Assembly (NCBI GenBank): GCA_035531075.1
Contig: DATKTO010000026.1
Span: 49,897 to 113,896, forward strand
Length of the DNA: 64,000 bases
DNA from: Gallionellaceae bacterium
Lineage (GTDB): Bacteria; Pseudomonadota; Gammaproteobacteria; Burkholderiales; Gallionellaceae
Reading direction: 5' to 3'
The translations under genes and the position numbers were made by a program. Below the pieces are notes generated by a model that did no database searches, had not been told where the DNA came from, and worked only from the letters and a program-made list of their open reading frames with translations. Below, in pieces: positions 4,954 to 31,473 of the stretch (position 1 is the first letter of the stretch; every line of letters begins with the position of its first letter).

Positions 4954-5011
4954 AAGTATCCGGTAACTAAAAGGCAGCGCGAGACGGGATTTCGTATTGA
5001 TATATGCTTGA

Positions 5012-5641: not shown

Positions 5642-5733
5642 ACGACACTTTCCCGAAAATGGCGTGGGTCTCCGTTAGATTACCGCCACACCGGTTTTCC
5701 ATTGTATAAACTAAGTCTTTATTCGACCGGTCA

Positions 5734-6573
5734 CTAATAGTAATAAGCCCTCGTCTCAATTTCAGCTTTGTTGAGTATCGTTCCAATAAGGTTTTCTGCC
5801 GGCAGGAGGCGAAGGCTGTCCTCTATTTCTCGCTTGGTGGACATTCCGTTGGCCACTACCATGAGTACGCAATCGATCTGGGGTAGTAAGGCGATGGCAT
5901 CATCTGTAACGAGCATGGGGGGCAGATCAAAGATGACAATGCGCGATTCGTATCGGTCGCGCAGATCTTTAATCAGGTTCGTAATATTTTTTGAAGAAAG
6001 GGTTTCTGCTGACCTCTTCACCCGACTCTTTGTTGGCAGCACCACTAGCCTCGGCATGTCTGGATTGACGAGCACCTCTGCTAGTTCAGCCGTACCATCC
6101 AGCAGGTCATTCAAAGATTTCTCCATGGGGATTCCCAGATAAGCACCTATCTTGGGGCAACGGAGGTCAAAGTCCACCAGCACGGCTGTTTTGTTGGTTT
6201 GCTGGGCAATGCTAATGGCCAGATTGATGGCGATTACGGTCTTTCCAGCCTCCGGGGTAGGCGAAGTAATAGCCAAGGTGCGCCAGCCATTTTCTTCCAT
6301 CTTTTGCAGGATATGGGTGCGCAGAAGATCGAAGACTATGCTCTTTGCATCGCTTTTATTGAACGCGACAATACGGTTATTTTCCAGATGATCCAGCCTC
6401 AACTTGACTACGCGCGTATGCGTGTAGCTGATGTTCTCCAACTCGCCATGAGTTATATCAGTGCGCGGCTTAGTCGCTGTGCGAGGGCTATCCGCATGTG
6501 GCTGAGTAAATTCACTGGATCCGCCTGACCGCTGTTTCTTTACCTTTTCGATGGCCTGCTTGATGCGTTCCAT
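5734..6573 (-). CDS. Polysaccharide co-polymerase ATPase / tyrosine autokinase-type protein (EpsG-like, PEP-CTERM locus)
   Basis: 279 aa with a CpsD/CapB-type Walker A (ITSPTPEAGKTVIAINLA) and Walker B (VIFDLPP). The C-terminus ends in ..RAYYY. It sits directly downstream of the chain-length determinant. Confidence 0.8.
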   Translation of the reverse strand: MERIKQAIEKVKKQRSGGSSEFTQPHADSPRTATKPRTDITHGELENISYTHTRVVKLRLDHLENNRIVAFNKSDAKSIVFDLLRTHILQKMEENGWRTLAITSPTPEAGKTVIAINLAISIAQQTNKTAVLVDFDLRCPKIGAYLGIPMEKSLNDLLDGTAELAEVLVNPDMPRLVVLPTKSRVKRSAETLSSKNITNLIKDLRDRYESRIVIFDLPPMLVTDDAIALLPQIDCVLMVVANGMSTKREIEDSLRLLPAENLIGTILNKAEIETRAYYY

Positions 6574-6597
6574 TCCTTTCTCCCTCTATTAATCTGG

Positions 6598-8145
6598 CTA
6601 TGACTTTAAAAACATGATATCCAGAGGCGTGTAAACAGAAATTAGTGCGACAATGGTCGCGATCAAGGCTATAACGCCTGTGATTATCGCCAGCTTGAGC
6701 ATGCGCTTTCTGCGTGCTCCATCCTCTTGTATAGCGAGGTAGGGAACGACAACCAGCGGCCGGTAACCCAACACATGGGTGAGTGCTTCGGTTCCATATA
6801 TCCGCTTGTCGATCGATTCCAAAAACATCATTGCACCACCTGAGGAAACCATGGCCAAGAAAAAGCCCAGTAAAATAATTTTGATACGATCTGGTTTAAA
6901 TGGCTTTTCCGGTAATAGCGGTGGTTCAAGCACAGAGAAACGCCCCGATATATTCTCGGTTTCGAGATGCTCGGCAATCTTCGCATTCATTTTCTTGTTG
7001 CGGATCTCCTCATACTTTCGTTGCGCGCTGTCGCGATCACGAATGAGCACATCCAGATCCTGCCCCACCTTAGGAGTAAGTATCATCGCGCGTTCATTCT
7101 CGGATATCTTGGCTTGTAGCATTTCTCTCTGCTGCACAAGGGAAACTAGCCTGGCCTTGTCAGAATCGATTTTTGCCTGAATCCGATACATTGCCACGTT
7201 TGAAACATCGGTTGAGGATGGTTCAGGCAAAGACGTGCCGGCTGTCTTCTCCATTGACTCGATTTTGCGCTTGATTATTCTTATGTCAGGGTGTGTTTCC
7301 TTATAAAGAGCAGAAAGCCTTGTTAGCTCCGCTTGAAGTGCTGGCAGGGTCTGTGTTGGATTTTCCTGAGTCGTGCCGTGTTTGGCAGCAGAGAGCTCGA
7401 CTTCCAGTGAGCGCAGCTCCTCTCTTGTGCTCCTGTAATCCCGCTCAACCTCACGCAGATCATTTTCGGCACGCGCGAGCATGGTCATGCGCAGAGTAAG
7501 CTGTTCTGGCAAGGCCTCTTTGTGCTGCTGCTTGTAAGCAGCAATCAACGCCTCCAGGCGATCAACCTCGACTTTAAGTTTATTAGACTCCTGTGAGAGG
7601 AAAAAAGTGGTCTCCATGGCTCCCTCCTTTCTCAGTTTTACATTCCAATCCAAGAAGAGAGTAATGAGATCGTTGGTGACTTGAAAGGCCACTTCTGGGT
7701 GCCGATCCTCGAACGATAGTGTGAACGCAATGGCCTCTTGCCCCTGCCGGTTGGTGCGCATGGAATCACCAGGGCTGACTGTCTCTACAACAATGCGATC
7801 ACGCATTTTTTCAGTCAGTTCCGTAGAGTTAAGGGAAACAATATTCCACTTGAATAGACTATATTTGTTGGCAATCTGCAACAAATTTTCTCTTGTCATT
7901 ATCCGCTGCTTGATGAGATTAATCTGCTCATCTAGTTTGTTTCTGATCACGCTGGGCACTATATTGTCAGTAATCTGCAGCGACTCCACCATGATGGTTC
8001 CGGTAGCACGGTATGTCGGTGGAATAGTGATTGCGACGGCAACTGAAATCAGTAATACCGTAAGAAATACAGCGATCAGAACTGGGGCGCGGCGGCGCAT
8101 GATCGACAGATAATCAATGAAGGTTAGTTCGTATTCGGTAGCCAT
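6598..8145 (-). CDS. Polysaccharide chain-length determinant protein (Wzz/PCP, EpsF-like)
   Basis: 515 aa. It has an N-terminal TM helix plus a Wzz-type segment (PPTYRATGTIMVE), a long coiled-coil periplasmic region and a C-terminal TM helix. Confidence 0.85.
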   Translation of the reverse strand: MATEYELTFIDYLSIMRRRAPVLIAVFLTVLLISVAVAITIPPTYRATGTIMVESLQITDNIVPSVIRNKLDEQINLIKQRIMTRENLLQIANKYSLFKWNIVSLNSTELTEKMRDRIVVETVSPGDSMRTNRQGQEAIAFTLSFEDRHPEVAFQVTNDLITLFLDWNVKLRKEGAMETTFFLSQESNKLKVEVDRLEALIAAYKQQHKEALPEQLTLRMTMLARAENDLREVERDYRSTREELRSLEVELSAAKHGTTQENPTQTLPALQAELTRLSALYKETHPDIRIIKRKIESMEKTAGTSLPEPSSTDVSNVAMYRIQAKIDSDKARLVSLVQQREMLQAKISENERAMILTPKVGQDLDVLIRDRDSAQRKYEEIRNKKMNAKIAEHLETENISGRFSVLEPPLLPEKPFKPDRIKIILLGFFLAMVSSGGAMMFLESIDKRIYGTEALTHVLGYRPLVVVPYLAIQEDGARRKRMLKLAIITGVIALIATIVALISVYTPLDIMFLKS

Positions 8146-19406: not shown

Positions 19407-20711
19407 TTACGTTGTGCCGAACTTGGTTTCCACCATGACACCAATTTCTTTGAGGAAGGGGGTCGGCAATATACCACCAGCGCAGACAATGATTCCATCA
19501 TTTGCTAATGTCACTTCCTTTGTTTCGTGATTCAGCACCACGTTATCTTGTCCAACACGTTTGACCGTTGATTTGAGCATGATTTTGATTTTCCCCTTCT
19601 CGGCCAGAGCATTCAGGCGATCACGATTTTTCTGTTTCCCGCGTCCAAATGCCTCGCTGCGATAAGACAGCGTAACGGTCGTATCCGGCTCCTCCGCAAT
19701 GGCGATGGCAGCCTCCAGCGCACTGTCTCCTCCGCCCACTACCAATACATGCATGTTGCGGTATTGTTCAGGATCAATTAATCGGTAAACTACTTTCGGC
19801 AAATCTTCACCAGGTACCTCAAGTTTGCGCGGTGTACCACGTCGACCGATCGCAAGCAGAATGGCCCGAGTTTGATAGCTCTGTTTCGTACTTTTGACGA
19901 TGAAGCCATTATCGGATTTATTGATGGTCTCCATGCGCTCGTTATAATTTATTTTCATACCGGTTTTTTGTATGACTTTATCCCAGAACTCCAGCAATGC
20001 CTCCTTGCTGATCTCGCCCATCTTGACTTGCCCGATAATCGGTAACTTGACTGGGGCGGTCATTGCTATCTTATTGCGAGGGTAATGGAAAATTGCACCG
20101 CCCAGTGAACTCTCCTGTTCGAGGGTGACATAGCGTAATTTTTTTTCAATCGCGCCCAGAGTACCTGCCAGACCGGCAGGACCTGCCCCGATAATGACTA
20201 CATCAAGTGGATGAGCACTGTTCTTCAGCTTGCTGATGGAATCCATGGCCTGGCTTCCCTGGCTGGCTGATTTGCGTATGAGTCCCATGCCGCCCAATTC
20301 GCCAGCGATAAATATGCCCGGCACGTTTGTTTCAAAATTGGGGCTGATTTGGGGAATATCCATTCCCCTTTTCTCAGTGCCAAATACAAGAGAAATCGCA
20401 TCATGCGGGCAGGCAGCCATGCAAGCGCCGTGTCCTATGCAGATGGTAGGATGAATTAGCACAGCTTTGCCTTTGATTATCCCGATAGCGCCTTCAGGGC
20501 AGGCAGATACACAAGATGCTGAGCCCAGACATTTATTATGATCAATCAAGGGATGCAGCGAGGAAGGCTCGGTCAGACCTGCCTCCAAAACTTCCTTGAG
20601 TTGCTCCATCGCGCTGGACTCTTTGCGACTTCGGTTATAAAAGTAAAAAAACAACACTACTGCAAACGGTATCAAATATATTTCAAGACCATGAGTTTCA
20701 ATATTCAACAT
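19407..20711 (-). CDS. Membrane-anchored ferredoxin-domain / FAD-NAD(P) oxidoreductase fusion
   Basis: 434 aa with an N-terminal TM helix followed by basic residues. Two ferredoxin-like motifs are present (CLGSASCVSACP, CIGHGACMAACP). FAD and NAD(P) Rossmann motifs follow (VVIIGAGPAGL; VLVVGGGDSALE). Confidence 0.8.
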   Translation of the reverse strand: MLNIETHGLEIYLIPFAVVLFFYFYNRSRKESSAMEQLKEVLEAGLTEPSSLHPLIDHNKCLGSASCVSACPEGAIGIIKGKAVLIHPTICIGHGACMAACPHDAISLVFGTEKRGMDIPQISPNFETNVPGIFIAGELGGMGLIRKSASQGSQAMDSISKLKNSAHPLDVVIIGAGPAGLAGTLGAIEKKLRYVTLEQESSLGGAIFHYPRNKIAMTAPVKLPIIGQVKMGEISKEALLEFWDKVIQKTGMKINYNERMETINKSDNGFIVKSTKQSYQTRAILLAIGRRGTPRKLEVPGEDLPKVVYRLIDPEQYRNMHVLVVGGGDSALEAAIAIAEEPDTTVTLSYRSEAFGRGKQKNRDRLNALAEKGKIKIMLKSTVKRVGQDNVVLNHETKEVTLANDGIIVCAGGILPTPFLKEIGVMVETKFGTT

Positions 20712-20838
20712 TGATTTAATCCGATTTGTATAAATATGAATAAGATTCTGAGAATTGCGCGAGCAACTGCAAAAGATACCTGTTTTCTAACAATTATCAG
20801 GCTGGCGCAGAATAAATTTTATTTTATATAACATATAG

Positions 20839-20852
20839 TTGAATCTATTCAA
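20839..20852. promoter_or_regulatory. FNR/CRP-family-like palindrome TTGAATCTATTCAA (TTGA-N6-TCAA)
   Basis: Read directly in the 285-bp divergent intergenic region. It is 128 nt from the flavoprotein start and 145 nt from the TPR gene start. Confidence 0.3.
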
Positions 20853-20996
20853 TACCGACTCCCCAAATGGTATTTCTCCCCGGACATTCTGTCGCATATT
20901 ACCAAGCAATCATTAAATGCGCTACCACCGAAAGATTCGGTGTATTATTATTTTAAGATCGGATGCCAGTCACCGAATCTATTTCTCACTTACTTT

Positions 20997-21554
20997 ATGG
21001 ATCAAAAGATGAAAATCGTAAAGCAACGTATATGGGCAATTTCTGGTGGAACAGCATTGCTAGCTATGTTTTTTGGGCTTGGATATGCAGTTGGCAGCAA
21101 AACCCTGCAATATCCTGTTGAAACGGCAGGCAAATTAACCTCATCCGATATTGAGCATGCCTTTGCTGGCGTTAGATCCTCTGCACATGAACCGACAATG
21201 CATGAACCAGCCGCAATGGGACTGAGTGGATTGGTGGCGGGGTTAGAAAAAAAAGTGGCAGAAAATCCAAAAAATATTGACCAGCAACTGTTATTGGCAC
21301 AGACCTACAATGAGTTGAATAATCGTGCACAGAGCCTCAAGTTATTGCACTCCCTCAATAAGCAATTTCCCGAAAATGCACAAGTAAAAATCACGCTGGC
21401 AACCATCCTGATGACAGGGGCAGATAAACAAGAGCTCAAAGAAGCATACCAAATGTTTGATGCGGCGATCGAACTGAAACCCGAAGTCGCCAGTATGGCA
21501 CGCATGTACCAGGGTGAAATTAGAGTTGAGTTAGAAAATATGGACAGGCAATAA
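20997..21554 (+). CDS. Membrane-anchored periplasmic TPR protein, CcmI C-terminal-like
   Basis: Start moved to ATG 20997 (MDQKMKIVKQRIWAISGGTALLAMFFGLGYAV is the TM anchor). The TPR-like part LEKKVAENPKNIDQQLLLAQTYNELNNRAQSLKLL.. resembles the apocytochrome-binding part of CcmI/CycH. Confidence 0.55.
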   Translation: MDQKMKIVKQRIWAISGGTALLAMFFGLGYAVGSKTLQYPVETAGKLTSSDIEHAFAGVRSSAHEPTMHEPAAMGLSGLVAGLEKKVAENPKNIDQQLLLAQTYNELNNRAQSLKLLHSLNKQFPENAQVKITLATILMTGADKQELKEAYQMFDAAIELKPEVASMARMYQGEIRVELENMDRQ

Positions 21555-21609
21555 TAACTGTTCTTAAATTTTTTAATAACATCAAAAAGTTTATAGGCAT
21601 GGCAGGCAA

Positions 21610-22524
21610 ATGAATACAAATGCGCAATCAAATTCGGCGGGGCAGCAAAAGGAGCAACGCAAACCTCAGGCTAAAGTTCGTTCCAGGGAATATGGCTGGA
21701 ATATCTTTTTGCTCGTCATCTGTGGCGTACTCGCTATGGGTTACTTTATATCCACACAAAAATTTTACAAGCCAGGCGACGACTTGGGCTACAACATGGG
21801 CCTTATTGGCGGAATAATGCTTCTGGCACTGCTGCTATATCCTTTGCGCAAACGCGTCCGCATTTTAAGGAGTTTGGGTATTCTGCCCATCTGGTTTAAA
21901 TGGCATATGATTTTCGGGATTTTGGCCCCTACTCTGATCCTGTTCCACTCTACCTTTCACATTGGTTCGATCAATGCGGGCATGGCGCTCGTTGCCATGT
22001 TATTGGTCGCAAGTAGCGGCGTATTTGGCCGTTTCTTCTACACCAAAATTCACAATGGTCTATTTGGCAGACAAGCTAATCTCAAGGAGCTTCAAGCTGA
22101 GGTGTCACAGACGGGTAACGTAAAGTCATTACTAGGTTTTGCGCCAGAAATTGAAAAACAGCTGGACGAGTTTCGCGCTCGCACCACCAGTGTCTCCAAA
22201 GGCGGTGACGCAGAATTGTGGCATTTTTCAACGATAGGTATTAAGGCAACCCTGTTGTCCCGTTCCTTGGGAAAGCAATTGCATCATGCAATGTATTCGC
22301 AGGCGAAAGAAAAAAATTGGAACCCTGCTCAAATGCAACGCCTCGATCTCATGTACGAGGAAAACAACAAACAAATACAGCTTTACATCAAAGCAGTACG
22401 GGACGTTGCTCAGTTCCATACTTATGAAAGACTGTTTTCATGGTGGCATATCTTTCATATTCCGCTGGTATATCTGCTGATATTCAGCGGCATATTTCAT
22501 GTCATATCAGTGCATATGTACTGA
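21610..22524 (+). CDS. Five-helix membrane protein with two H-x13-H pairs (putative di-haem b)
   Basis: 304 aa with four N-terminal TM helices, a ~130-aa soluble insert and a final TM helix. His99/His113 lie in KWHMIFGILAPTLILFH, and His283/His297 lie in FHIPLVYLLIFSGIFH. Confidence 0.5.
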   Translation: MNTNAQSNSAGQQKEQRKPQAKVRSREYGWNIFLLVICGVLAMGYFISTQKFYKPGDDLGYNMGLIGGIMLLALLLYPLRKRVRILRSLGILPIWFKWHMIFGILAPTLILFHSTFHIGSINAGMALVAMLLVASSGVFGRFFYTKIHNGLFGRQANLKELQAEVSQTGNVKSLLGFAPEIEKQLDEFRARTTSVSKGGDAELWHFSTIGIKATLLSRSLGKQLHHAMYSQAKEKNWNPAQMQRLDLMYEENNKQIQLYIKAVRDVAQFHTYERLFSWWHIFHIPLVYLLIFSGIFHVISVHMY

Positions 22525-22543
22525 GTGACTCCCGCCTTCTTAT

Positions 22544-24313
22544 ATGCCAACATTTCTGCGTATTTTTCTATTAGCCGGCCTCACTCTGCTAGGGAGTATG
22601 CCTGTTCAAGCGGATTCAATAGGGGACATCTTATCGCCTGGAAAACTGATTGAGGGCCATGCCAAAGTAGAAAGCGAGTGCATAAAATGCCACAAAAAAT
22701 TTGATAAGGCCGCACAAAATTCGCTATGCAAGGATTGCCACAAGGATGTGGCAAATGACATTACTGAAATGCGCGGTTATCACGGCCATTTGAAAGAACA
22801 GAAAGACTGCAAGGAATGCCACACAGATCATAAAGGGCGAGATGCCAAAATTATCGTTTTTTCATCGGATAAATTTGATCATGCGCAAACCAATTTTCAG
22901 CTTAAGGGGAGGCATTTAAGTGACAAGGTCAAGTGCAAAGATTGCCACTTGCCTGCGAAAAAATTCCGCGAAGCGCCTTACGCATGTAATTCCTGCCACA
23001 AGAAGGACGATAGGCATAAAGGCGGTTTAGGTACTGATTGTGCGAAGTGCCACGAAGAAAAGGACTGGAAGACCACCCGCTTCGACCACGCTAAAACTGA
23101 TTTCAGACTGCTGGGCAAGCATAATGAAGTCAAGTGTAAAGAGTGTCATATTGATAACCGATATAAAGACACGCCAAAACTATGCAACTCATGTCACAAA
23201 AATGACGATAAGCATAAAGGTAATTTCGGCGGGAAATGCGAAACCTGTCACTTGGAAAAGGGCTGGAGAGAAATTATTTTTGACCACGGCAAACAGACAA
23301 AATACGCACTGCGCTGGAAACATAATGAAGCGAAATGCAGCAGTTGCCACAAGGGCGATGTATTTAAAGAAAAGCTTAAGACCGATTGTGTATCGTGCCA
23401 TAAAAGAGATGACAAGCATAAAGGAAACTTTGGCGGCAAGTGTGAAAGCTGCCACGTCGAAAAAGGCTGGAAAGAAATTCTGTTCGACCATGCCAAGAAA
23501 ACAAAATACCCATTGACAGGTAAACACATGACGGCCAAATGCAGCAGTTGCCACAAAGGTGACATGAAGGAAAAATTGCCGATGGACTGTTTCTCTTGTC
23601 ATAAAAAAGACGACAAGCATAAAGGAAACTTTGGCGGCAAGTGTGAAAGCTGCCACGTCGAGAGAGAATGGAAAGAAATTCTGTTTGACCATGCAAAGTC
23701 AACCAGGTATTCCCTGCTCGGCAAGCATAAGGAAGTGAGATGCGGCAGCTGCCACAAGGGTGATCTCTATAAAGACAAGCTGCAAACCAAGTGCATTGCC
23801 TGCCACGAAAGCGATGACAAACACAAAGGCCAGCAAGGCAAAAAATGCGAGTCTTGCCACAATGAGCAATCTTGGACGAAAGTAAAATTTGATCATAGCC
23901 TGTCAACCTTCCCCTTGTTGGGCAAGCATTTTCTGGTGGAGTGCAAAAAATGCCATGCGACGCCCTTATTCAAGGATGCGAAGTCAGACTGCTGGTCCTG
24001 CCATGAAAAAGAGGATGTGCACAAGCGACGCTTGGGAACTGCATGTGATAGCTGTCATAACATGCGTAACTGGAAAGCTTGGGACTTTGACCATAATAAA
24101 ACCGGCTTCAAGCTGGAGGGGCCACATGGCAAACTTGGCTGCTATCAATGCCACAAACAGCCCATGAATAAAAAACTAAGCCTCTCCAGTTCATGCGGCA
24201 GCTGCCACGCTGGCGACGATGTGCACAACGGTGAATATGGTCGTCAGTGTGAGCGTTGTCATATAGGAACTACATGGAAAAAAGTCCGGGTGGATGGGAA
24301 ATTTATACGTTGA
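22544..24313 (+). CDS. 24-haem c-type cytochrome (eight tandem cytochrome c7-type trihaem modules), secreted
   Basis: 589 aa with signal peptide MPTFLRIFLLAGLTLLGSMPVQA. I counted 24 CxxCH motifs in groups of three. The recurring module is KCxxCH..CxSCHxxDDKHKGxxGxKCxxCH..W....FDH..T.F.L.GKH. Confidence 0.9.
   Translation: MPTFLRIFLLAGLTLLGSMPVQADSIGDILSPGKLIEGHAKVESECIKCHKKFDKAAQNSLCKDCHKDVANDITEMRGYHGHLKEQKDCKECHTDHKGRDAKIIVFSSDKFDHAQTNFQLKGRHLSDKVKCKDCHLPAKKFREAPYACNSCHKKDDRHKGGLGTDCAKCHEEKDWKTTRFDHAKTDFRLLGKHNEVKCKECHIDNRYKDTPKLCNSCHKNDDKHKGNFGGKCETCHLEKGWREIIFDHGKQTKYALRWKHNEAKCSSCHKGDVFKEKLKTDCVSCHKRDDKHKGNFGGKCESCHVEKGWKEILFDHAKKTKYPLTGKHMTAKCSSCHKGDMKEKLPMDCFSCHKKDDKHKGNFGGKCESCHVEREWKEILFDHAKSTRYSLLGKHKEVRCGSCHKGDLYKDKLQTKCIACHESDDKHKGQQGKKCESCHNEQSWTKVKFDHSLSTFPLLGKHFLVECKKCHATPLFKDAKSDCWSCHEKEDVHKRRLGTACDSCHNMRNWKAWDFDHNKTGFKLEGPHGKLGCYQCHKQPMNKKLSLSSSCGSCHAGDDVHNGEYGRQCERCHIGTTWKKVRVDGKFIR
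23006..23870 (+). repeat. Tandem in-gene module repeats (periods 198/204/201/204 nt), including a 50-nt perfect duplicate
   Basis: The anchor codons (A/G)A(G/A)-CA(T/C)-AAA-GG recur at 23012, 23210, 23414, 23615 and 23819. The string gacaagcataaaggaaactttggcggcaagtgtgaaagctgccacgtcga is identical at 23411-23460 and 23612-23661. Confidence 0.9.
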
Positions 24314-24509
24314 TTTAGAGCATTTATATAAATAATTTCAACCATATACAAAATCTCATACCGTTCGTATCAATAATATAAATCCGATAAATGGGCTTGT
24401 CGTTTCATCAGCACCTAAAGTAAATTTTCAATTGCCGGCCAAAGAAAATTTAATGCAAGTGTTCAGTGATTGCTGCTTGCGTTAAAGCTTGGAAAAACAG
24501 GGGGGGAAA

Positions 24510-25490
24510 ATGACAAAAAAATTATTCAGAAGTCTGCAAACCAAGCATCGCTTAATGATGTCTGTATTCATTGCGTTTGCCATGATTATCCTGGCGCCTG
24601 GCGTTTCTGCGCAGGCCGTGCGCAACACCAGTGATTTCAATCACATGAGGACAGGTTTTCCCCTGACTGGCGTACACACGAATGTTGAGTGTGAAACTTG
24701 CCATGTAGGCGGAATATTCAAGGGCACACCCACCGACTGTGCGGGATGTCACTCAGCCGGCAGACGTGTTGTTGCAACACCCAAACCCGTCAACCATATC
24801 ATCAGCAATGCACCTTGCGAAACCTGCCATACCAATACGGTCACTTTCCAGGGGGCGCGCTTTAACCATATTGGCGTACAACCAAGAGCCTGCATGACCT
24901 GTCACAACGGTGGGATGGGACCGGGAAAACCGGGGGGGCACGTTGTAACCAACCTGGCTTGCGATAGATGCCACAGGACAAGTGCTTGGATACCGGCAGG
25001 TTATGATCACATTGGCGTTGCACCCGGCAGCTGTGCGAACTGCCACAATGGCAGCACTGCTACAGGCAAATCTCCGTCGCATGTTGCAACTACTGCCGCT
25101 TGCGACACCTGCCATTTAAATTTTACCAGTTTCTTGGGCGCTATATTTAACCATACGGGCGTAGCACCAGGAACCTGCGGTACCTGCCATAACGGCCAGA
25201 TTTCTGGCGCAACGACTAAAGTTTCAAACCATATTCCCTATACAGGCAACGCTTGTGACTCCTGTCATACCAATACCAGTAACTACACGTCATTTTTAGG
25301 GCCTGTAATGAATCACGCTGTGATAGGGACAACCGCCTGTAAGACTTGTCACGCTACAGGAACGTCATATCTGGGGAATATGGAGAAGAAGGCTGTTACA
25401 CATAATTCACCAACTGCTGTGGATTGCGCACAATCAGGCTGCCATAAACCTGGACTGAACGGTCGAGGTACGCTGTATTTAATCTGGTGA
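24510..25490 (+). CDS. Multihaem c-type cytochrome (10 CxxCH plus one CxxxxCH), secreted
   Basis: Start set at ATG 24510, behind a G-rich SD. The signal peptide is ..ILAPGVSAQA. The ~47-aa dihaem units have the form F(N/D)H.GV.PG.C..CHNG......H......C..CH. The terminal motif is DCAQSGCH. Confidence 0.88.
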   Translation: MTKKLFRSLQTKHRLMMSVFIAFAMIILAPGVSAQAVRNTSDFNHMRTGFPLTGVHTNVECETCHVGGIFKGTPTDCAGCHSAGRRVVATPKPVNHIISNAPCETCHTNTVTFQGARFNHIGVQPRACMTCHNGGMGPGKPGGHVVTNLACDRCHRTSAWIPAGYDHIGVAPGSCANCHNGSTATGKSPSHVATTAACDTCHLNFTSFLGAIFNHTGVAPGTCGTCHNGQISGATTKVSNHIPYTGNACDSCHTNTSNYTSFLGPVMNHAVIGTTACKTCHATGTSYLGNMEKKAVTHNSPTAVDCAQSGCHKPGLNGRGTLYLIW

Positions 25491-25629
25491 TCAATAATTC
25501 ATTCCTGGTGGATGCGATGTAATTTTTGTCGCAAGCCTGCACGCAGAATGGAATTTTTAAATAAATCAAAATAGTACTCAGCCCGCTTATTTTTCTAAAC
25601 GGGTTGCTTGCCAAAGGAGTTCAAGTATT

Positions 25630-27759
25630 GTGATGAATATAAAAGTACCCCAATCTAAAAGGGTATTTTGGGCACTTTCCGCTTTCGTATGGCTTTTTTC
25701 CGACCATGTAATCGCGCAACCGCTTGAGGATATTACTTTGCAGACTGAAACAGACAGGGTAATTGCGACTATCAGGCTGAGCAGTCCGGTGCATAACATC
25801 CGCTATTTTCCTGCAAAAAAAGGAAGGACACTGGAAATACTTCTTGATAAATTACCCGATGGCTCAGTCAGCGAAGAGTGGCTGGATAATGAAGTCTTAA
25901 AATCTCCGCCATCAAATTTGGCTCCTTCTTTTACGGTAAAGACCAATCTAAAAACTACCCAGCCAAAATTGATTATTGACTTCATTCGTGAAGCTGAATA
26001 CACGGTGAATGCAGGCAGAGACGGACGAAGTATTTTAGTTGCTATCAAAATCGATAAAGTTCTGCCCAGCACCGAGGGGGGGCTAGCTTTTTTACCTGCA
26101 GCAAAACCTTTGGCTGTAGCAACTGACATCGATAAACAGGCGGCTGCACTGATGCTGCAAGGGCGTAACTCATTGGCGGCATCCGATAATTTTGCAGCGA
26201 TTGATGCCTTCAATAAACTATTGTTGCTCCCTCCCAACGATTACACACAGGATGGGCAGGAGTGGGTAGGCGTTGCAAGAGAACGCGCCGGCCAAGCGGA
26301 TAAAGCCAAGCTGGAGTATGAGCTATATTTGAAACTCTACACCGGTGGTGAGGGTTTTGAGCGGGTCAAGGCTCGTCTGGCTAAGCTGGGCAGCAAACCC
26401 ACACCGCCTTCTGTCACGGCGGAGCGAGCGACCACAAAGAAACAGGCCAAGCAAACATTAGCCTACGGCAGCTTATCCATGCACTACTATCATGGTGCCA
26501 GCAAAATTGACACGATTGCTCCGTTTAACAACACATTAACTCAATCGACCTTTTCTGCGGTGGATCAATCTGCACTCCTCACCAGTGTGGTTGCGACTGA
26601 ACGCTTTATCAGCGAGGAATATGATAGCCGCATCGTGTTTCAGGATACGGCCTACGCCAATTTTTTACCGGGGAAGACAGGCAAAAACAAGCTGAATGCG
26701 GCCTATTTTGAAGTCAAGAACAAGCTGTCAGATTATTCTGCTCGCTTTGGCCGCCAGTCCTCAAGTGGCAGTGGCGTCATGGGACGTTTTGATGGTGCGG
26801 CCGCTGGCTTTGGCCTTACCCCGTCGATGCGTGTGAACGCGGTGGCGGGCCAGCTTTCCGATTTTTCGGCAGATTCAAAACCCGTGTTTTACGGTGCCAG
26901 CATAGATATGGGGCCAGTTACGCTTTACGCAATAAATCAGACGGTGGATGGCATGCTTGATCGTAGAGCTGTAGGTACGGAGCTACGCTATTTTGAACCG
27001 TCCAGGACTGCGTTTGCCGTACTGGATTACGATACCAGTTACTCCACATTAAATATAGCGATGTTTCAGGGGAGTTTCAGCACCAGTGCTGAGCGGACGT
27101 ATAACCTGCTGCTGGATCATCGCAGAGCGCCCTACATGAGCACGAGAAATGCACTGTATGGCGCAACTACATCATCCATATCAGATCTGCTGCAAATCAT
27201 GACTGAAGATGAATTGCGCGCTCTGGCTGCAACGCGCACGGGCGCTGCCAATATGGCGCAGCTTGGGGTGACCCAGCAGATATCGCAAAGATGGCAATTA
27301 GGCGGCGACGTCAGGCTATCCAGTTATGAAGGTTTACCCGCTAGTGGCTTAACGACTTTGGAAGGGCAATTACCCGCGACGCCCGCCACGGGAAACGAAT
27401 GGACTGTATCGCCCCAGCTGATAGGAAGCAATCTTTTTTCAAGCAGTGATGTAACGGTGTTTAGCCTGAGCTATATTGCCAGCCCGCTTTACAGAGCGCA
27501 GTCATTTTATGCCTATAGTCGCGCGAATCTTACTGACAGGTGGTCCATGGATTTGGCTATGCAACTCTTTCGGCAAAACTATGATTCGGGCATGTTGATG
27601 ACCCGAATCATGCCAATGTTTAGAACGGCATATCAGATGAAGCAGAGTCTCAGTCTGGATTTTGAGGCGGGACTGGAAAATAACCACATTGAAAACGCAG
27701 ACCAGTCATCGGATGGGCAACGACAGTTCTTCTCTTTGGGTTTCCGCTGGGACTTCTAA
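25630..27759 (+). CDS. Outer-membrane protein with an AMIN-like N-terminus, TPR middle and C-terminal beta-barrel
   Basis: 709 aa with AAGGAG 10 nt upstream of the GTG start and a signal peptide (..FSDHVIA|QP). A TPR-like helical segment spans about aa 170-260. The last ~430 aa are rich in alternating strands and end in ..FFSLGFRWDF (aromatic terminus). Confidence 0.7.
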   Translation: MMNIKVPQSKRVFWALSAFVWLFSDHVIAQPLEDITLQTETDRVIATIRLSSPVHNIRYFPAKKGRTLEILLDKLPDGSVSEEWLDNEVLKSPPSNLAPSFTVKTNLKTTQPKLIIDFIREAEYTVNAGRDGRSILVAIKIDKVLPSTEGGLAFLPAAKPLAVATDIDKQAAALMLQGRNSLAASDNFAAIDAFNKLLLLPPNDYTQDGQEWVGVARERAGQADKAKLEYELYLKLYTGGEGFERVKARLAKLGSKPTPPSVTAERATTKKQAKQTLAYGSLSMHYYHGASKIDTIAPFNNTLTQSTFSAVDQSALLTSVVATERFISEEYDSRIVFQDTAYANFLPGKTGKNKLNAAYFEVKNKLSDYSARFGRQSSSGSGVMGRFDGAAAGFGLTPSMRVNAVAGQLSDFSADSKPVFYGASIDMGPVTLYAINQTVDGMLDRRAVGTELRYFEPSRTAFAVLDYDTSYSTLNIAMFQGSFSTSAERTYNLLLDHRRAPYMSTRNALYGATTSSISDLLQIMTEDELRALAATRTGAANMAQLGVTQQISQRWQLGGDVRLSSYEGLPASGLTTLEGQLPATPATGNEWTVSPQLIGSNLFSSSDVTVFSLSYIASPLYRAQSFYAYSRANLTDRWSMDLAMQLFRQNYDSGMLMTRIMPMFRTAYQMKQSLSLDFEAGLENNHIENADQSSDGQRQFFSLGFRWDF

Positions 27760-27799
27760 TCTGATTTGTTTATTTCTTTAACTTTTGCTGTTTAAAAAA

Positions 27800-28342
27800 T
27801 CAATCCGCGACTGGTCCAAAGTTCATGCCGATGGAGATACGCCGCTCGCCGCTGCGATTGATGCTTACTGAGTGGAGCACATTCGGGGCGAAGAAAACAA
27901 ACATGCCCGGCTGCGGCGTAACCAGCGTGCGGCTATGCCTGTCCACGACAACCAACTCTCCTGATTCTTGCGGGACTTGAACATAATAGACCCCGGACAG
28001 CATTTCATCATAGTCGTCATGGTCGTGTTCTGTAGTGGCCTCATTGGGCCCCATATCATTGATCCAGAAACCACTGCGCAATTTCTCATCGGGCTTTTGT
28101 AACAGATTTTTGGCATAGCTCTCAGCCTGCTCAAGCACCCGTCCTATCGCCTGAATGCGCTCGCGATGCAGATACAGATTCTCGTAACGACCGTCAAAAA
28201 AATGACTGCGCCGCAACCAATCCTCCTCACGTAATTGCACGTAGGCATCCATGATCTGCCGGTTAATATCTGCAGCTTCCGGCATGAAACCAATATGGAT
28301 GCGAGAGTTTTCCAACAGTGTTGAAGCGATCTGGTGTGTCAT
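27800..28342 (-). CDS. 2OG-Fe(II) oxygenase-like protein (2OG-FeII_Oxy_5 type)
   Basis: 180 aa. GFWINDMGPNEATTEHDHDD..LSGVYYVQVP..GMFVFFAPNVLHSVSINRSGERRISIGMNF matches the HxD...H double-stranded beta-helix pattern. Confidence 0.6.
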   Translation of the reverse strand: MTHQIASTLLENSRIHIGFMPEAADINRQIMDAYVQLREEDWLRRSHFFDGRYENLYLHRERIQAIGRVLEQAESYAKNLLQKPDEKLRSGFWINDMGPNEATTEHDHDDYDEMLSGVYYVQVPQESGELVVVDRHSRTLVTPQPGMFVFFAPNVLHSVSINRSGERRISIGMNFGPVAD

Positions 28343-29639: not shown

Positions 29640-30788
29640 TTATGATAATGACGGCAATTGCTGTGTGAGTGCAGCTTTCTCATTCACCGCCGATCCCATC
29701 AACGCAAAACCCAACAACTGGCCATTCGTATGATGGAATACGGCTTTGACGCCGTCAATATTACCCTCTACCTTCCATTCGCCCTGCGCGCCTGGCTCCG
29801 GCGGTGAAACTACCGTTGGGCAGGCCGGTGTCTTAACCGCCACTGGCATCGCCGGATAGTGAACAGGCATTGAGTTGCCTGTGAGTATGGGAGCCAATGC
29901 GCGGGCAGCATGCATAATGGGCATCACAAAAGGCAGCACGCGCCCTTCAACTTCTGCGCAATCGCCCAAGGCATAGATATCCTCAAAATTGGTTTGCAGC
30001 AATCCATTCACCACGATGCCACGGTTGATCTTGATGCCTGCAGCGGCTGCCAGGGCTGTGCGTGGCCTTAATCCAACCGCGGACAAAACCACATCCGCCG
30101 ATATGTTTTCACCGTTAGCCAAGGCCAGGCTAAGCTGCTCTCCCGCCTGCTCAATCTTCTGTGTGGTCGTGCCCAGATGAAACACCACCCCCTCCGCTTC
30201 CAGCTTGCGCTGAATGAAAGCTGCAGATTCCGCAGGCAACAAACGACCCAATAGCTGCGGCGCGAGATCGATCACATGCACATTGTATCCAGCTCCAACC
30301 AGATCATTGGCAAACTCGCAGCCAATCAGGCCTGCGCCGAGAATGACCACGTCCGTTTTTCCTTCGACAGCCTCTCGAAAACGACGATAATCATCCAGAT
30401 CATTCACCGACAACACCGCATCCGCTCCGTCGCCCTGCACGGGAAGACGGATGGGATCAGCTCCCAGAGCCAGTACGAGCTTGCTGTAAGGCAATACCTC
30501 TCCACTCACAGTCAGTTGTTTACGCAGTGGATCAATTGCGTTTACTTTCGAATTCGGCCTTACCTCGATTTTGACTTCAGCAGCCATTTTCGCCGCGTCT
30601 TTCATCAGCAAAGAATCGGCACTTTTTTTCTGCGCAAAGGCATTGGACAACATAGGCTTGGAATAGAAACCACCGTGATCCTCAGATAAAATAATGACAG
30701 GAGTTTCTGTATCAAGCTTACGGAATTCACGCGCTACCGTGTAGCCCGCAAGCCCGCTGCCAATGATGACTACGGGCTGTTGGCTCAT
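29640..30788 (-). CDS. Rubredoxin-NAD(+) reductase (FAD-dependent pyridine nucleotide-disulfide oxidoreductase)
   Basis: 382 aa with IIGSGLAGY (FAD) and ILGAGLIGCEF (NAD) motifs. It lies 2 nt downstream of a rubredoxin gene. Confidence 0.85.
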   Translation of the reverse strand: MSQQPVVIIGSGLAGYTVAREFRKLDTETPVIILSEDHGGFYSKPMLSNAFAQKKSADSLLMKDAAKMAAEVKIEVRPNSKVNAIDPLRKQLTVSGEVLPYSKLVLALGADPIRLPVQGDGADAVLSVNDLDDYRRFREAVEGKTDVVILGAGLIGCEFANDLVGAGYNVHVIDLAPQLLGRLLPAESAAFIQRKLEAEGVVFHLGTTTQKIEQAGEQLSLALANGENISADVVLSAVGLRPRTALAAAAGIKINRGIVVNGLLQTNFEDIYALGDCAEVEGRVLPFVMPIMHAARALAPILTGNSMPVHYPAMPVAVKTPACPTVVSPPEPGAQGEWKVEGNIDGVKAVFHHTNGQLLGFALMGSAVNEKAALTQQLPSLS

Positions 30789-30790
30789 GA

Positions 30791-30955
30791 TTACACCTCC
30801 ACCATCTCAAAGTCAGACTTGGCTACGCCGCAGTCAGGACATGACCAGTCAGCTGGAACATCATCCCAACGCGTACCTGGCTTGATACCGTGCTCGGGAT
30901 CGCCTTTTGCTTCGTCATAGATAAAACTGCACACCAAACATTGCCATACTTTCAT
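30791..30955 (-). CDS. Rubredoxin (54 aa, not in the supplied ORF track)
   Basis: My translation is [54 protein letters not shown], with the canonical CxxC...CPxCG iron site. Confidence 0.9.
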
Positions 30956-31005
30956 GATCGTTCCTTTTGATAAATGATATTAATAAATTTATATTAAACA
31001 GCTAA

Positions 31006-31473
31006 TTAAGCTTTGATCTTCGCCAGTGTATCGCGGTAGTGGTTGGCATGCTTCTCTTCTACACGAGCCAATGCTGCGAAACGCTTGGCAGCTTTTTCAA
31101 GTGTAGCCTTGAACTGTTGTGCATGGACCCTGGACTCGTCGATTTGTTCGTCGATTTCCGCAACTGCAGCATGGTTACCCTCTTCAATGGCCGTGTGACG
31201 GAACGAAGGGTACATTTCAGTGTATTCGTAGGTTTCGCCTTCAATCGCCATTTCCAGGCATCTTGCTGGCGTCATCGTCGCAGGGGGATAGAGCAGGTCC
31301 AGATGGCCCAATGCGTGTTGCACCTCCTGAGCAGCAGTTTCCTCAAATACTCTGGCTGTTTCCACGTCTCCCGCAGCGCGGCAGATTTTAGCAAAGTACA
31401 TATATTTGGTGTGTGCCATCGATTCGCCGGCAAAGGCGGATTCCAGATTTTGTATCGTGGTTGGTGCTTTCAT
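31006..31473 (-). CDS. Rubrerythrin-family diiron protein (no rubredoxin domain)
   Basis: 155 aa with NLESAFAGESMAHTKYMYFA, AQEVQHALGH, EGETYEYTEMY and EEKHANHY, which are ferritin-like ExxH diiron ligands. Confidence 0.85.
   Translation of the reverse strand: MKAPTTIQNLESAFAGESMAHTKYMYFAKICRAAGDVETARVFEETAAQEVQHALGHLDLLYPPATMTPARCLEMAIEGETYEYTEMYPSFRHTAIEEGNHAAVAEIDEQIDESRVHAQQFKATLEKAAKRFAALARVEEKHANHYRDTLAKIKA

What the first reader, a model, noticed from the sequence alone, without database searches (positions are those of the whole stretch)
22544..24313. 24-haem periplasmic 'wire' built from eight tandem trihaem c7-type modules
I counted 24 CxxCH motifs in 589 aa, roughly one haem per 24 residues. 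They fall in eight groups of three. Seven groups follow the same ~66-69-aa template KCxxCH-(8-13)-CxSCHxxDDxHKGxxGxxCxxCH-xxxxW....FDH..T.F.L.G.H. Each module also supplies three extra conserved His (DKH, FDH, GKH), which is enough for bis-His ligation of all three haems, as in Geobacter PpcA-type cytochrome c7. Polymers of c7 modules are known from Geobacter. The dodecahaem GSU1996, with four modules, crystallised as an extended ~12 nm protein. Eight modules would be about twice that, long enough by itself to bridge a periplasm. Finding such a polymer in an apparently beta-proteobacterial context next to an OM barrel is unusual.
Basis: partly seen in the sequence, partly recalled or inferred. 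Interest (0 to 1): 0.7.

Follow-up and report, generated by a model that had tools for sequence, protein, structure and literature searches.

The report
Known PCC3 24-haem periplasmic cytochrome
The gene really encodes a 24-haem cytochrome made of repeated three-haem units, but it is the already described periplasmic subunit of the "PCC3" porin-cytochrome gene cluster common in iron-oxidising Gallionellaceae, so it is not a new kind of protein.

Summary
ORF 22544-24313 (+) encodes a 589-aa secreted protein with 24 CxxCH motifs, period 66-68 aa. All 24 motifs and exactly 24 further His are invariant in 70 orthologs. Pfam calls seven cytochrome-c7 units.

It is not unusual. The gene sits in a PCC3 cluster: a 304-aa inner-membrane protein with two WX3HX13H motifs and SGXXG, the 24-haem cytochrome, an 11-haem Thr/Gly-rich cytochrome, and an outer-membrane protein predicted as a 22-strand barrel. 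He et al. 2017 defined this cluster. Hoover et al. 2023 reported periplasmic subunits with 21, 24 or 27 haems in 42 of 87 Gallionellaceae iron oxidisers. Sideroxydans ES-1 (Slit_1447) and CL21 carry 24-haem versions.

The order is conserved in 80 genome loci, where 24 haems is the commonest count. Relatives reach 94 haems. The periplasm-spanning wire idea is published but untested, and I could not measure the shape of my low-confidence model.

Two refinements. No Met is invariant in the orthologs, unlike GSU1996 with one His-Met haem per domain.

One side observation seems unreported. A membrane-anchored 2x[4Fe-4S] flavoprotein is transcribed divergently from the inner-membrane gene in about 82% of loci, even in some that lack the porin.

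The parts
22544..24313 (+). Periplasmic 24-haem c-type cytochrome (PCC3 'cyt-c_p'), 589 aa. Signal peptide is residues 1-23 (22544-22612). Repeats of about 67 aa each carry three CxxCH and three distal His.
   Evidence: motifs, invariance, period. (Pfam Cytochrome_C7 6.6e-29, 7 stretches). (orthologs and synteny).
21610..22524 (+). PCC3 inner-membrane protein (IMP), 304 aa, five predicted TM helices. WX3HX13H sits on TM3 (W95-H113) and TM5 (W279-H297), and SGXXG on TM4 (S136). Putative dihaem-b transmembrane electron carrier with a helical loop at 140-275 that is probably cytoplasmic. Its stop is 19 bp upstream of the cytochrome start.
   Evidence: motifs; W95, H99, H113, S136, G137, G140, W279 and H283 are invariant in 30 orthologs, and H297 is at least 90% conserved. 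Motif definition from PMC5566968. No Pfam or PDB relative.
24489..25490 (+). Second multihaem cytochrome (PCC3 'extracellular' MHC), 333 aa from TTG 24489, or 326 aa from ATG 24510 as called by JGI. It has 10 CxxCH plus one CX4CH and is Thr/Gly/Ala/Asn-rich. It has a signal peptide and no lipobox.
   Evidence: motifs; T 13.1%, G 12.0%, A 8.9%. (Cytochrome_C7 1.6e-14). (weak DmsE/MtrA-family hit, 32 bits against a cut-off of 192). (JGI gene call). (a match downstream of the 24-haem gene in 70 of the 80 genome loci).
25630..27759 (+). Outer-membrane protein, 709 aa. Signal peptide, N-terminal beta-sandwich (about 32-140), TPR-like helical domain (about 166-255) and a 22-strand beta-barrel (275-708). 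It ends in ...GFRWDF.
   Evidence: AlphaFold2, mean pLDDT 83, barrel above 90. (Foldseek hits to porins, FadL, usher and BcsC barrels, E down to 1e-9). (present downstream in 56 of 59 genome loci with at least 6 kb of flank).
19407..20711 (-). Candidate cytoplasmic-side partner. A 434-aa protein with an N-terminal TM anchor (residues 9-25), a 2x[4Fe-4S] ferredoxin domain (54-108) and a TrxR/YpdA/FNR-type FAD/NAD(P)-binding domain (170-430) with no CxxC. It is transcribed divergently from the IMP operon.
   Evidence: domains, conserved anchor. (divergent and adjacent in 40/49 metagenome loci and 56/68 genome loci). (reverse look-ups).
20940..21554 (+). Small TPR protein (204 aa from GTG) lying between the flavoprotein gene and the IMP gene. 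It is lineage-specific and probably not a core part.
   Evidence: TPR_19; a hit to the CcmH/CycH TPR domain below the cut-off. (found only in the closest relative, L001).

Best explanation
The ORF encodes the periplasmic multihaem cytochrome of a PCC3-type porin-cytochrome gene cluster from a Gallionellaceae-like betaproteobacterium.

Shown here. It is a Sec-exported 589-aa protein that can bind 24 c-type haems, each with a conserved second His. It is built from tandem repeats of about 67 aa that belong to the cytochrome c7/c3 superfamily. It is co-transcribed with a five-helix inner-membrane protein carrying two HX13H pairs, and it is followed by an 11-haem cytochrome and a 22-strand outer-membrane barrel.

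Inferred. The 24 haems form one continuous chain, roughly 1 nm per haem by analogy with GSU1996. That chain would carry electrons between the two b-haems of the inner-membrane protein and the cytochrome lodged in or beyond the outer-membrane barrel. If so, a single polypeptide bridges most or all of the periplasm and no diffusing carrier is needed.

The direction of flow and the physiological partner (Fe(II) or mineral oxidation, or electron export) are unknown. The repeat number changes in steps of one trihaem unit (21, 24, 27 and so on), which would change the length of the chain.
For: - Motifs and invariance.
- c7 family: PF14522, seven stretches; hhalign to PpcA, E = 5e-4; GSU1996 fragment 3OUQ, E = 0.003.
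- PCC3 hallmarks as defined in PMC5566968: the IMP motifs WX3HX13H twice plus SGXXG, a second Thr/Gly/Ala-rich MHC and a barrel.
- Synteny IMP-pMHC-MHC-OMP in 80 genome loci, including Sideroxydans lithotrophicus, Sideroxyarcus, Ferrigenium, Methylotenera and Ideonella.
- Haem counts fall in multiples of three: 118 of the best 120 homologs. In the 80 genome loci every complete gene has 21, 24, 27 or 30 haems, with 24 the commonest.
- A one-module indel separates two otherwise identical proteins.
- Literature: periplasmic PCC3 MHCs with 21/24/27 haems occur in 42 of 87 Gallionellaceae FeOB, and their AlphaFold models are 'long and mostly linear' (PMC9900912). ES-1 Slit_1446-1449 has the same gene order with a 24-haem Slit_1447 (PMC8788666), and the ES-1 proteome table gives non-zero expression values for Slit_1447 in seven of eight samples (PMC11429942). 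CL21 has 24+14 and 24+12 haem clusters.
Against: - No experiment has tested PCC3 function; it was still called 'uncharacterized' in 2026 (PMC13386937).
- In ES-1 both PCC3 clusters were down-regulated on Fe(II) relative to thiosulfate, so a role in iron oxidation is doubtful.
- My structure model was of low confidence (pLDDT 64, pTM 0.29), had no Foldseek hit and gave no coordinates, so the extended shape is not verified here.
- Some loci keep the flavoprotein, IMP and cytochrome but have no second cytochrome or matching porin nearby: L005, L071, L082/L083. The protein therefore need not work as part of its own outer-membrane conduit.
- Which of the two cytochromes enters the barrel is unknown.
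Confidence: 0.8

Rival explanations
1. Periplasmic capacitor rather than wire. The 24 haems mainly store electrons, buffering the respiratory chain when donors or acceptors fluctuate, as proposed for the Geobacter c7 polymers GSU1996, GSU0592 and GSU2210. Charge and discharge would go through the inner-membrane protein. The outer-membrane components would be optional.
For: Geobacter c7 polymers are discussed as electron-storage devices (PMC10138318). Hoover et al. also mention capacitor behaviour. Loci with flavoprotein, IMP and cytochrome but no second cytochrome or matching porin exist in at least three lineages. Expression in ES-1 proteomes is similar across conditions.
Against: In 56 of 59 genome loci with enough flank, the outer-membrane protein gene is present downstream of the cytochrome, which suggests a conduit. 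Storage and conduction are not exclusive. Repeat number clusters tightly at 21-27 in Gallionellaceae, which fits a length constraint better than a capacity constraint.
Confidence: 0.25
2. NAD(P)H- or ferredoxin-linked trans-envelope conduit. The conserved divergent gene encodes a membrane-anchored 2x[4Fe-4S] FNR-like flavoprotein. It would dock on the cytoplasmic loop of the dihaem-b IMP and exchange electrons with it, as in NOX/FRE enzymes or MsrQ-Fre. The 24-haem chain would then connect cytoplasmic pyridine nucleotides or ferredoxin, rather than or as well as the quinone pool, with the periplasm and cell surface. The likely direction is outward, since outward electron flow runs with the membrane potential.
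For: The flavoprotein gene is divergent and adjacent to the IMP gene in 56/68 genome loci and 40/49 IMP-anchored metagenome loci, down to 39% IMP identity. All three reverse look-ups from flavoprotein homologs landed next to IMP plus cytochrome. It persists where porin and second cytochrome are absent. The TM anchor is conserved. The flavoprotein domain is TrxR/FNR-type with no CxxC. The HX13H x2 pattern of the IMP resembles the ferric-reductase domain (PMC5566968). By the positive-inside rule its long loop is cytoplasmic. PCC3 is down-regulated on Fe(II) in ES-1.
Against: The evidence is gene neighbourhood only. About 18% of loci lack the gene, and these include second PCC3 copies within one genome. 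The flavoprotein is much more conserved than the cytochromes (66-90% against 50-66%), which could also mean an unrelated housekeeping role next to a shared promoter region. The IMP has no detectable sequence homology to Ferric_reduct.
Confidence: 0.3
3. A catalytic multihaem enzyme (for example a reductase for a soluble periplasmic substrate), not an electron carrier.
For: Large multihaem proteins such as octahaem reductases and HAO are enzymes. The NCBIfam scan gave only a faint hit to HmcA.
Against: Every haem has a conserved distal His (24 of 24), and there is no CxxCK or other motif for an open coordination site. At about 24.5 residues per haem there is no room for a substrate pocket. There is no similarity to catalytic MHC families above threshold.
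Confidence: 0.03

Closest known systems
PCC3 periplasmic multihaem cytochrome (He et al. 2017, PMC5566968; Hoover et al. 2023 'MMseqs2 cluster 20', PMC9900912; S. lithotrophicus ES-1 Slit_1447; Sideroxydans sp. CL21 PCC3 copies 1 and 2)
   Same: - Same gene order as given for Slit_1446-1449: IMP, cyt-c_p, cyt-c_e, porin.
- Same haem number (24).
- Same low residue-to-haem ratio and internal repeats.
- Same IMP motifs.
- About 60% aa identity to the copy in a Sideroxydans lithotrophicus MAG (L037), with all four parts syntenic.
   Different: Nothing essential differs. The second cytochrome here is at the small end of the range (11 haems; published range 10-35 in Gallionellaceae, up to 85 elsewhere). 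[quoted passage not shown]
Geobacter sulfurreducens c7 polymers: GSU1996 and GSU0592 (12 haems, four c7-type domains; PDB 3OV0/3OUQ) and GSU2210 (27 haems)
   Same: One polypeptide made of tandem trihaem c7-type units. Periplasmic. About 25-30 residues per haem. Described as 'nanowires of haems' (PMC10138318). Pfam places both in Cytochrome_C7.
   Different: - Sequence similarity is marginal: E = 0.003 to a hexahaem fragment, and none with the family profile.
- GSU1996 has one His-Met haem per domain. Here no Met is invariant in the orthologs and there are 24 invariant distal His.
- The Geobacter genes have not been reported in a PCC3-type cluster with an IMP and a porin (my recollection, not tested).
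- In the c7 register the distal His are distributed 1+2 rather than 2+1 as in PpcA.
MtrCAB / MtoAB porin-cytochrome complexes (Shewanella, Sideroxydans)
   Same: The same logic: a multihaem cytochrome paired with an outer-membrane barrel, with or without an extracellular cytochrome. The 333-aa, 11-haem second cytochrome is close to the size of MtrA and gives a weak DmsE-family hit.
   Different: There is no homology above threshold (32 bits against 192). The barrel has 22 predicted strands against 26 in MtrB (the MtrB figure is from my own knowledge of PDB 6R2Q). Mtr/Mto relies on small diffusing periplasmic carriers and a CymA/ImoA quinol dehydrogenase. PCC3 instead has a 21-27-haem periplasmic protein and a dihaem-b-like IMP.
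NOX/FRE ferric-reductase-domain proteins and MsrQ-Fre
   Same: Two HX13H pairs on two transmembrane helices, predicted to hold two stacked b-haems. A flavoprotein electron donor on the cytoplasmic side. A genuine MsrP/MsrQ pair lies elsewhere in the window (48398-49962).
   Different: The PCC3 IMP gives no Pfam Ferric_reduct hit and has five helices rather than six. The flavoprotein is a separate, membrane-anchored TrxR-type protein with two [4Fe-4S] clusters. The link rests on inference from gene neighbourhood only.

Membership tests
PCC3 porin-cytochrome gene cluster (He et al. 2017) | Conserved IMP of about 300 aa with five TM helices, WX3HX13H on TM3 and TM5, and SGXXG on TM4 | tested here: met
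   The IMP is 304 aa. The hydropathy scan gives helices at about 29-47, 59-77, 95-117, 121-139 and 279-301. The motifs are W95FKWH...H113, S136GVFG and W279HIFH...H297. The key residues are invariant or at least 90% conserved in 30 orthologs.
PCC3 porin-cytochrome gene cluster (He et al. 2017) | Periplasmic MHC with a very high haem count (median 21; 21/24/27 in Gallionellaceae), a low residue-to-haem ratio and internal repeats | tested here: met
   24 CxxCH in 589 aa gives 24.5 aa per haem. Repeats of 66-68 aa. Signal peptide present.
PCC3 porin-cytochrome gene cluster (He et al. 2017) | Second MHC rich in Thr/Ser/Ala/Gly and predicted to be extracellular | tested here: inconclusive
   The composition fits (T 13.1, G 12.0, A 8.9, S 5.8%), with 10+1 haem motifs. 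Extracellular location cannot be tested with these tools. Its MtrA-like size leaves open that it sits inside the barrel.
PCC3 porin-cytochrome gene cluster (He et al. 2017) | Outer-membrane beta-barrel (porin) gene in the cluster | tested here: met
   AlphaFold2 predicts a 22-strand barrel at residues 275-708 with pLDDT above 90 and a C-terminal Phe. Foldseek matches OM barrels with E down to 1e-9.
PCC3 porin-cytochrome gene cluster (He et al. 2017) | Homology and shared gene order with clusters of named PCC3 carriers (Sideroxydans, Gallionellaceae, Methylotenera and others) | tested here: met
   Among 80 genome loci the IMP was found in 77 and the OMP in 65 (56 of the 59 with at least 6 kb of downstream flank). 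A second cytochrome lies downstream in 70; most of the other ten are cut by a contig end. The order is the same. The set includes an S. lithotrophicus MAG (L037) and Ferrigenium sp. UT4 (L050). The ES-1 reference proteins themselves were not on hand.
PCC3 porin-cytochrome gene cluster (He et al. 2017) | The parts form a physical electron conduit across the envelope | not testable with these tools
   No experiment exists in the literature read.
Cytochrome c7 family / c7 polymers (PpcA, GSU1996) | Significant match to the c7 family profile | tested here: met
   Pfam PF14522, E = 6.6e-29, 100 bits against a cut-off of 24.8, seven stretches.
Cytochrome c7 family / c7 polymers (PpcA, GSU1996) | Three haems per unit of about 70 aa, in the PpcA order of ligands and motifs (His, His, haem I, His, haem III, haem IV) | tested here: inconclusive
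   hhalign to PpcA (sequence checked against 1OS6) aligns haems I/III/IV to C89/C131/C148, with E = 5e-4 and probability 31%. In that register there is one His before haem I and two between haems I and III, which is not the 2+1 of PpcA.
Cytochrome c7 family / c7 polymers (PpcA, GSU1996) | Detectable sequence homology to GSU1996 | tested here: inconclusive
   phmmer gives E = 0.0028 to 3OUQ_A over one unit. The family profile finds no PDB chain below E = 0.02.
Cytochrome c7 family / c7 polymers (PpcA, GSU1996) | One His-Met haem per domain (a GSU1996 feature) | tested here: not met
   No Met is invariant or nearly invariant in 70 orthologs, while 24 distal His are invariant. The GSU1996 feature is taken from PMC10138318.
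Cytochrome c7 family / c7 polymers (PpcA, GSU1996) | c7 three-dimensional fold and an extended haem chain | tested here: inconclusive
   AlphaFold2 without haems gave pLDDT 64 and pTM 0.29. Foldseek against the PDB returned 0 hits, and no coordinates were available.
MtrA/MtoA/DmsE decahaem family | Match to TIGR03508 above its cut-off | tested here: not met
   The 24-haem protein gave no hit. The 333-aa cytochrome scored 32 bits against a cut-off of 192.

The most novel reading that the evidence does not exclude
The conserved core of PCC3 may not be 'porin plus cytochromes'. It may instead be a trio: a membrane-anchored 2x[4Fe-4S] FNR-type flavoprotein, the dihaem-b-like IMP, and the 21-27-haem periplasmic cytochrome. 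In that reading the 24-haem chain is wired through the inner membrane directly to cytoplasmic NAD(P)H or ferredoxin, like a NOX or MsrQ-Fre system, rather than to the quinone pool. PCC3 would then be an electron-export or redox-balancing device, not an iron oxidase. In the papers I read, the flavoprotein is not mentioned as part of PCC3.
Probability: 0.25. Interest if true: 0.6.

Novelty: already known. Interest (0 to 1): 0.3.

Why it matters
PCC3 is widespread in iron-oxidising and other Proteobacteria. It is one of the few candidate systems in which a single protein could carry electrons across the whole periplasm. Its function is still untested, so it remains an open problem in extracellular electron transfer. 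This window adds no new kind of protein.

The comparative work done here does give three usable points:
1. Haem number changes strictly by trihaem units. One case is a one-unit difference between two otherwise identical proteins. This makes the protein a natural length series for testing the wire idea.
2. All haems are predicted bis-His, unlike the Geobacter c7 polymers.
3. A conserved FeS-flavoprotein neighbour suggests a testable cytoplasmic electron partner. It could explain why PCC3 does not respond to Fe(II) in Sideroxydans ES-1.

Tried and rejected
- Foldseek of the full-length AlphaFold2 model against the PDB gave 0 hits. The model is too uncertain, so it neither supports nor refutes an extended shape.
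- A profile search of the PDB with the 70-ortholog alignment found nothing below E = 0.02, only short CxxCH-context matches to reaction-centre cytochromes.
- A profile search of the PDB with the IMP alignment found only spurious coiled-coil matches. Pfam at E <= 1 gave nothing for the IMP or for the N-terminal beta-sandwich of the outer-membrane protein.
- Promoter and terminator scans of 20500-28000 gave no more sites than shuffled sequence, so no statement on the operon comes from them.
- A literature search for '24-heme' or 'periplasm-spanning' cytochromes returned nothing relevant. Edwards et al. 2020, cited by Hoover for the periplasm-spanning remark, does not contain the term PCC3.
- A catalytic enzyme was considered and rejected, because every haem has a conserved sixth ligand.
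- A chance or low-complexity artefact was considered and rejected on the shuffle test and on invariance across orthologs.
- MtrA/MtoA membership was considered and rejected because scores are far below the cut-off.
- NCBIfam gives no family for the IMP or the outer-membrane protein.
Full report
**1. The observation**

The + strand ORF 22544-24313 is open for 589 codons. It has 24 CxxCH motifs. All 48 Cys of the protein lie in them, and there are no variant motifs (CX3-4CH, CxxCK). There are 25 further His.

Shuffling the residues 20,000 times gave a mean of 0.32 motifs and never more than 4. The distance from each motif to the third one after it is 66-68 residues from the second group onward.

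Cutting the protein at the first motif of each triple gives eight segments:
- Segment 1 is 85 aa and divergent.
- Segment 8 stops before FDH/GKH. A GH39 in the mature N-terminus makes up the number.

In an alignment of 70 orthologs (60-85% identity), all 24 motifs and exactly 24 other His are invariant, and no Met is. The first 23 residues are a Sec signal ending VQA/DS.

**2. Family of the repeat**

Pfam places the protein in Cytochrome_C7 (PF14522, E = 6.6e-29, 100 bits against a cut-off of 24.8) with seven separate stretches. The best stretch covers residues 357-422.

That stretch, and an hhalign comparison of the ortholog profile with PpcA, put PpcA haems I, III and IV on C89, C131 and C148 (E = 5e-4, probability 31%, so weak). 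I had first checked my recalled PpcA sequence against PDB 1OS6.

The protein reads as a two-haem N-terminal cap, seven c7-like units and a one-haem C-terminal cap. In this register there is one distal His before haem I and two between haems I and III. PpcA has two and one.

Direct similarity to the Geobacter polymer GSU1996 is marginal (3OUQ, E = 0.0028). The family profile finds no solved structure. GSU1996 has one His-Met haem per domain (PMC10138318). This protein has no conserved Met. So it is a polymer of c7-superfamily units, but not a close relative of the Geobacter proteins.

**3. Surroundings**

Five genes run on the + strand with short gaps:
- a small TPR protein (20940-21554);
- a 304-aa membrane protein (21610-22524, ending 19 bp before the cytochrome);
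- the 24-haem cytochrome;
- a 333-aa cytochrome with 10 CxxCH plus one CX4CH, rich in Thr, Gly, Ala and Asn (24489-25490);
- a 709-aa protein with no Pfam or NCBIfam family (25630-27759).

The membrane protein has five hydrophobic helices. WX3HX13H lies on the third and fifth and SGXXG on the fourth. The key residues are invariant or nearly so in 30 orthologs.

AlphaFold2 models the 709-aa protein with confidence (mean pLDDT 83, barrel above 90). It predicts a signal peptide, a beta-sandwich, a TPR-like helical domain and a 22-strand barrel ending in Phe. Foldseek matches it to outer-membrane barrels.

**4. Identification**

These four parts, in this order, are the 'PCC3' cluster defined by He et al. 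[quoted passage not shown] The authors proposed that the IMP binds two b-haems and that the cytochromes are molecular wires able to span the space between the membranes (PMC5566968).

Later papers add the following:
- Hoover et al. 2023 found the periplasmic subunit with 21, 24 or 27 haems in 42 of 87 Gallionellaceae iron oxidisers. They reported AlphaFold models that are 'long and mostly linear' and repeated the periplasm-spanning idea (PMC9900912).
- S. lithotrophicus ES-1 has Slit_1446-1449 (IMP, 24-haem cyt-c_p, 28-haem cyt-c_e, porin). Both of its PCC3 clusters are down-regulated on Fe(II) relative to thiosulfate (PMC8788666). The ES-1 proteome table gives non-zero expression values for Slit_1447 in seven of eight samples (PMC11429942).
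- Sideroxydans CL21 has clusters with 24+14 and 24+12 haems.
- In 2026 PCC3 was still described as uncharacterised (PMC13386937).

**5. Comparative evidence gathered here**

More than 7,000 homologs exist in the large protein collection. Of the best 120, 118 have haem counts that are multiples of three: 21 (7), 24 (70), 27 (21), then 30 to 45.

A scan of one genome per species returned 80 loci from Gallionellaceae, Sideroxydans, Sideroxyarcus, Ferrigenium, Methylotenera, Ideonella, Rhodocyclales and a Nitrospiraceae MAG. The closest is a Gallionellales MAG at 82% identity. In these loci:
- the IMP precedes the cytochrome in 77 of 80;
- a second cytochrome follows it in 70 of 80, and most of the other ten loci are cut by a contig end;
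- the barrel protein is present downstream in 56 of the 59 with at least 6 kb of flank;
- the periplasmic cytochrome has 24 haems in most, 27 in several, 21 in a few and 30 in one, while the second cytochrome ranges from 9 to 61.

An exhaustive HMMER search of 1.84 billion cluster representatives found 1,095 clusters at E <= 1e-30. Of the best 149, 104 have 24 or more motifs. The largest has 94 in 2,321 aa, and the median is 25.7 residues per haem.

Eight modules is therefore the commonest form among close relatives and mid-range in the wider family. Geobacter GSU2210 already has 27 haems. The claim that such a polymer is unusual in a betaproteobacterial setting is not supported.

**6. How the repeats evolve**

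Modules 4 and 5 are the most alike (79% aa, 75% DNA), and the terminal ones are the most divergent. This fits expansion in the middle of the array.

Two metagenome contigs with identical flavoprotein genes and the same called neighbouring genes carry cytochromes of 530 aa (21 haems) and 600 aa (24 haems). They differ by one 70-residue block and by no other residue. This is either a very recent one-module change or an assembly collapse of the repeat.

**7. Mechanism**

Shown: the protein is exported, the haem-binding capacity is 24 with 24 conserved distal His, the build is modular, and the gene is coupled to the IMP, the second cytochrome and the barrel.

Inferred: the haems form a continuous chain whose length (about 1 nm per haem, from my recollection of the roughly 12-nm, 12-haem GSU1996 crystal structure) would approach the width of a periplasm. 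Electrons would then pass between the periplasmic-side b-haem of the IMP (H113/H297) and the cytochrome associated with the barrel.

I could not verify the shape. The AlphaFold2 model without haems had pLDDT 64 and pTM 0.29. The tool returns no coordinates, and Foldseek found nothing. The direction of flow and the substrate are unknown, and the ES-1 expression data argue against a simple iron-oxidase role.

**8. A side observation that bears on mechanism**

The gene transcribed divergently from the cluster (19407-20711, - strand) encodes a 434-aa protein. It has a conserved N-terminal membrane anchor, a 2x[4Fe-4S] ferredoxin domain and a thioredoxin-reductase/YpdA/FNR-type flavoprotein domain that lacks the CxxC of true thioredoxin reductases.

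Its linkage to the IMP is strong:
- It lies divergent and within 1.5 kb of the IMP gene in 56 of 68 genome loci.
- It does so in 40 of 49 metagenome loci found with the IMP as the anchor, down to 39% IMP identity.
- All three look-ups that started from flavoprotein homologs landed next to IMP plus cytochrome.
- In L005, L071 and L082/L083 the trio is present without a second cytochrome or a matching porin.
- PCC3 copies that lack it tend to be second copies in a genome and share a different upstream gene pair.

The PCC3 papers I read do not mention this protein.

By the positive-inside rule, the long helical loop of the IMP (140-275) is cytoplasmic. This suggests, but does not show, a NOX-like or MsrQ-Fre-like input of electrons from NAD(P)H or ferredoxin to the IMP and on to the 24-haem chain.

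**9. Verdict**

The object is an already described protein family in an already described gene cluster, and the wire hypothesis is already in print and still untested. Interest is therefore modest. The flavoprotein association and the one-module polymorphism are the only points that go beyond the literature I could read.

Noticed in passing
window 19407-20711 (-); also L001-L164: A membrane-anchored 2x[4Fe-4S] plus TrxR/FNR-type flavoprotein (no CxxC) is transcribed divergently from the PCC3 IMP gene in about 82% of loci (56/68 genome loci, 40/49 metagenome loci). It is more conserved than the cytochromes. The PCC3 papers I read do not mention it.
   Followed up: yes
L082:4063-5655 (-) vs L083:3853-5655 (-): Two contigs with identical flavoprotein genes and the same called neighbouring genes carry periplasmic cytochromes of 21 and 24 haems. 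They differ by exactly one 70-aa module and by no other residue. This is either a recent copy-number change or an assembly collapse of the repeat.
   Followed up: partly
L005 (downstream of 5958), L071 (downstream of 10004), L082/L083: In at least three lineages the flavoprotein, IMP and periplasmic cytochrome occur without a second cytochrome or a homolog of the 709-aa barrel protein nearby. In L082/L083 the next genes are tatC and molybdenum-cofactor genes. In L071 a small 262-aa gene that looks like an outer-membrane protein follows on the opposite strand; I did not test it.
   Followed up: partly
L004, L011, L017, L052, L062, L066 (about 4300-7000, + strand): PCC3 copies that lack the flavoprotein neighbour share a different upstream pair: a membrane protein of about 300 aa that looks like a permease, and a protein of about 310 aa starting MKNSP(T/V)PAEI. 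Several of these are second PCC3 copies in genomes whose other copy has the flavoprotein.
   Followed up: no
window 25630-26450 (residues 1-270 of the 709-aa protein): The barrel protein carries a periplasmic N-terminal beta-sandwich and a TPR-like helical domain ahead of the 22-strand barrel. Pfam recognises neither above threshold. They could dock the periplasmic cytochrome or bind peptidoglycan.
   Followed up: partly
window 20940-21554 (+): A small TPR protein lies between the flavoprotein and IMP genes. It is present only here and in the closest relative (L001). It has a below-threshold Pfam hit to the CcmH/CycH cytochrome-c-biogenesis TPR domain.
   Followed up: no
window 48398-49363 and 49363-49962 (+): An MsrP/MsrQ-like pair: a molybdopterin oxidoreductase with a Tat signal, and a Ferric_reduct dihaem-b membrane protein (Pfam 1.3e-20). 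It is a genuine ferric-reductase-domain protein in the same genome, for comparison with the PCC3 IMP.
   Followed up: partly
window 46212-46778 (+): A 188-aa dihaem cytochrome c (Pfam DHC, 7.8e-36) with a signal peptide.
   Followed up: no
window 29640-31473 (-): Rubredoxin reductase, rubredoxin and rubrerythrin genes lie in a row, next to a divergent LysR regulator. This looks like an oxidative-stress cluster and appears unrelated to the finding.
   Followed up: no
window 22544-27759; L081: The 709-aa barrel protein is 100% identical to a JGI metagenome protein (sample 3300031669, contig Ga0307375_10000014, and a second contig of 461 kb). The window therefore comes from, or is identical to, an environmental assembly.
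   Followed up: partly
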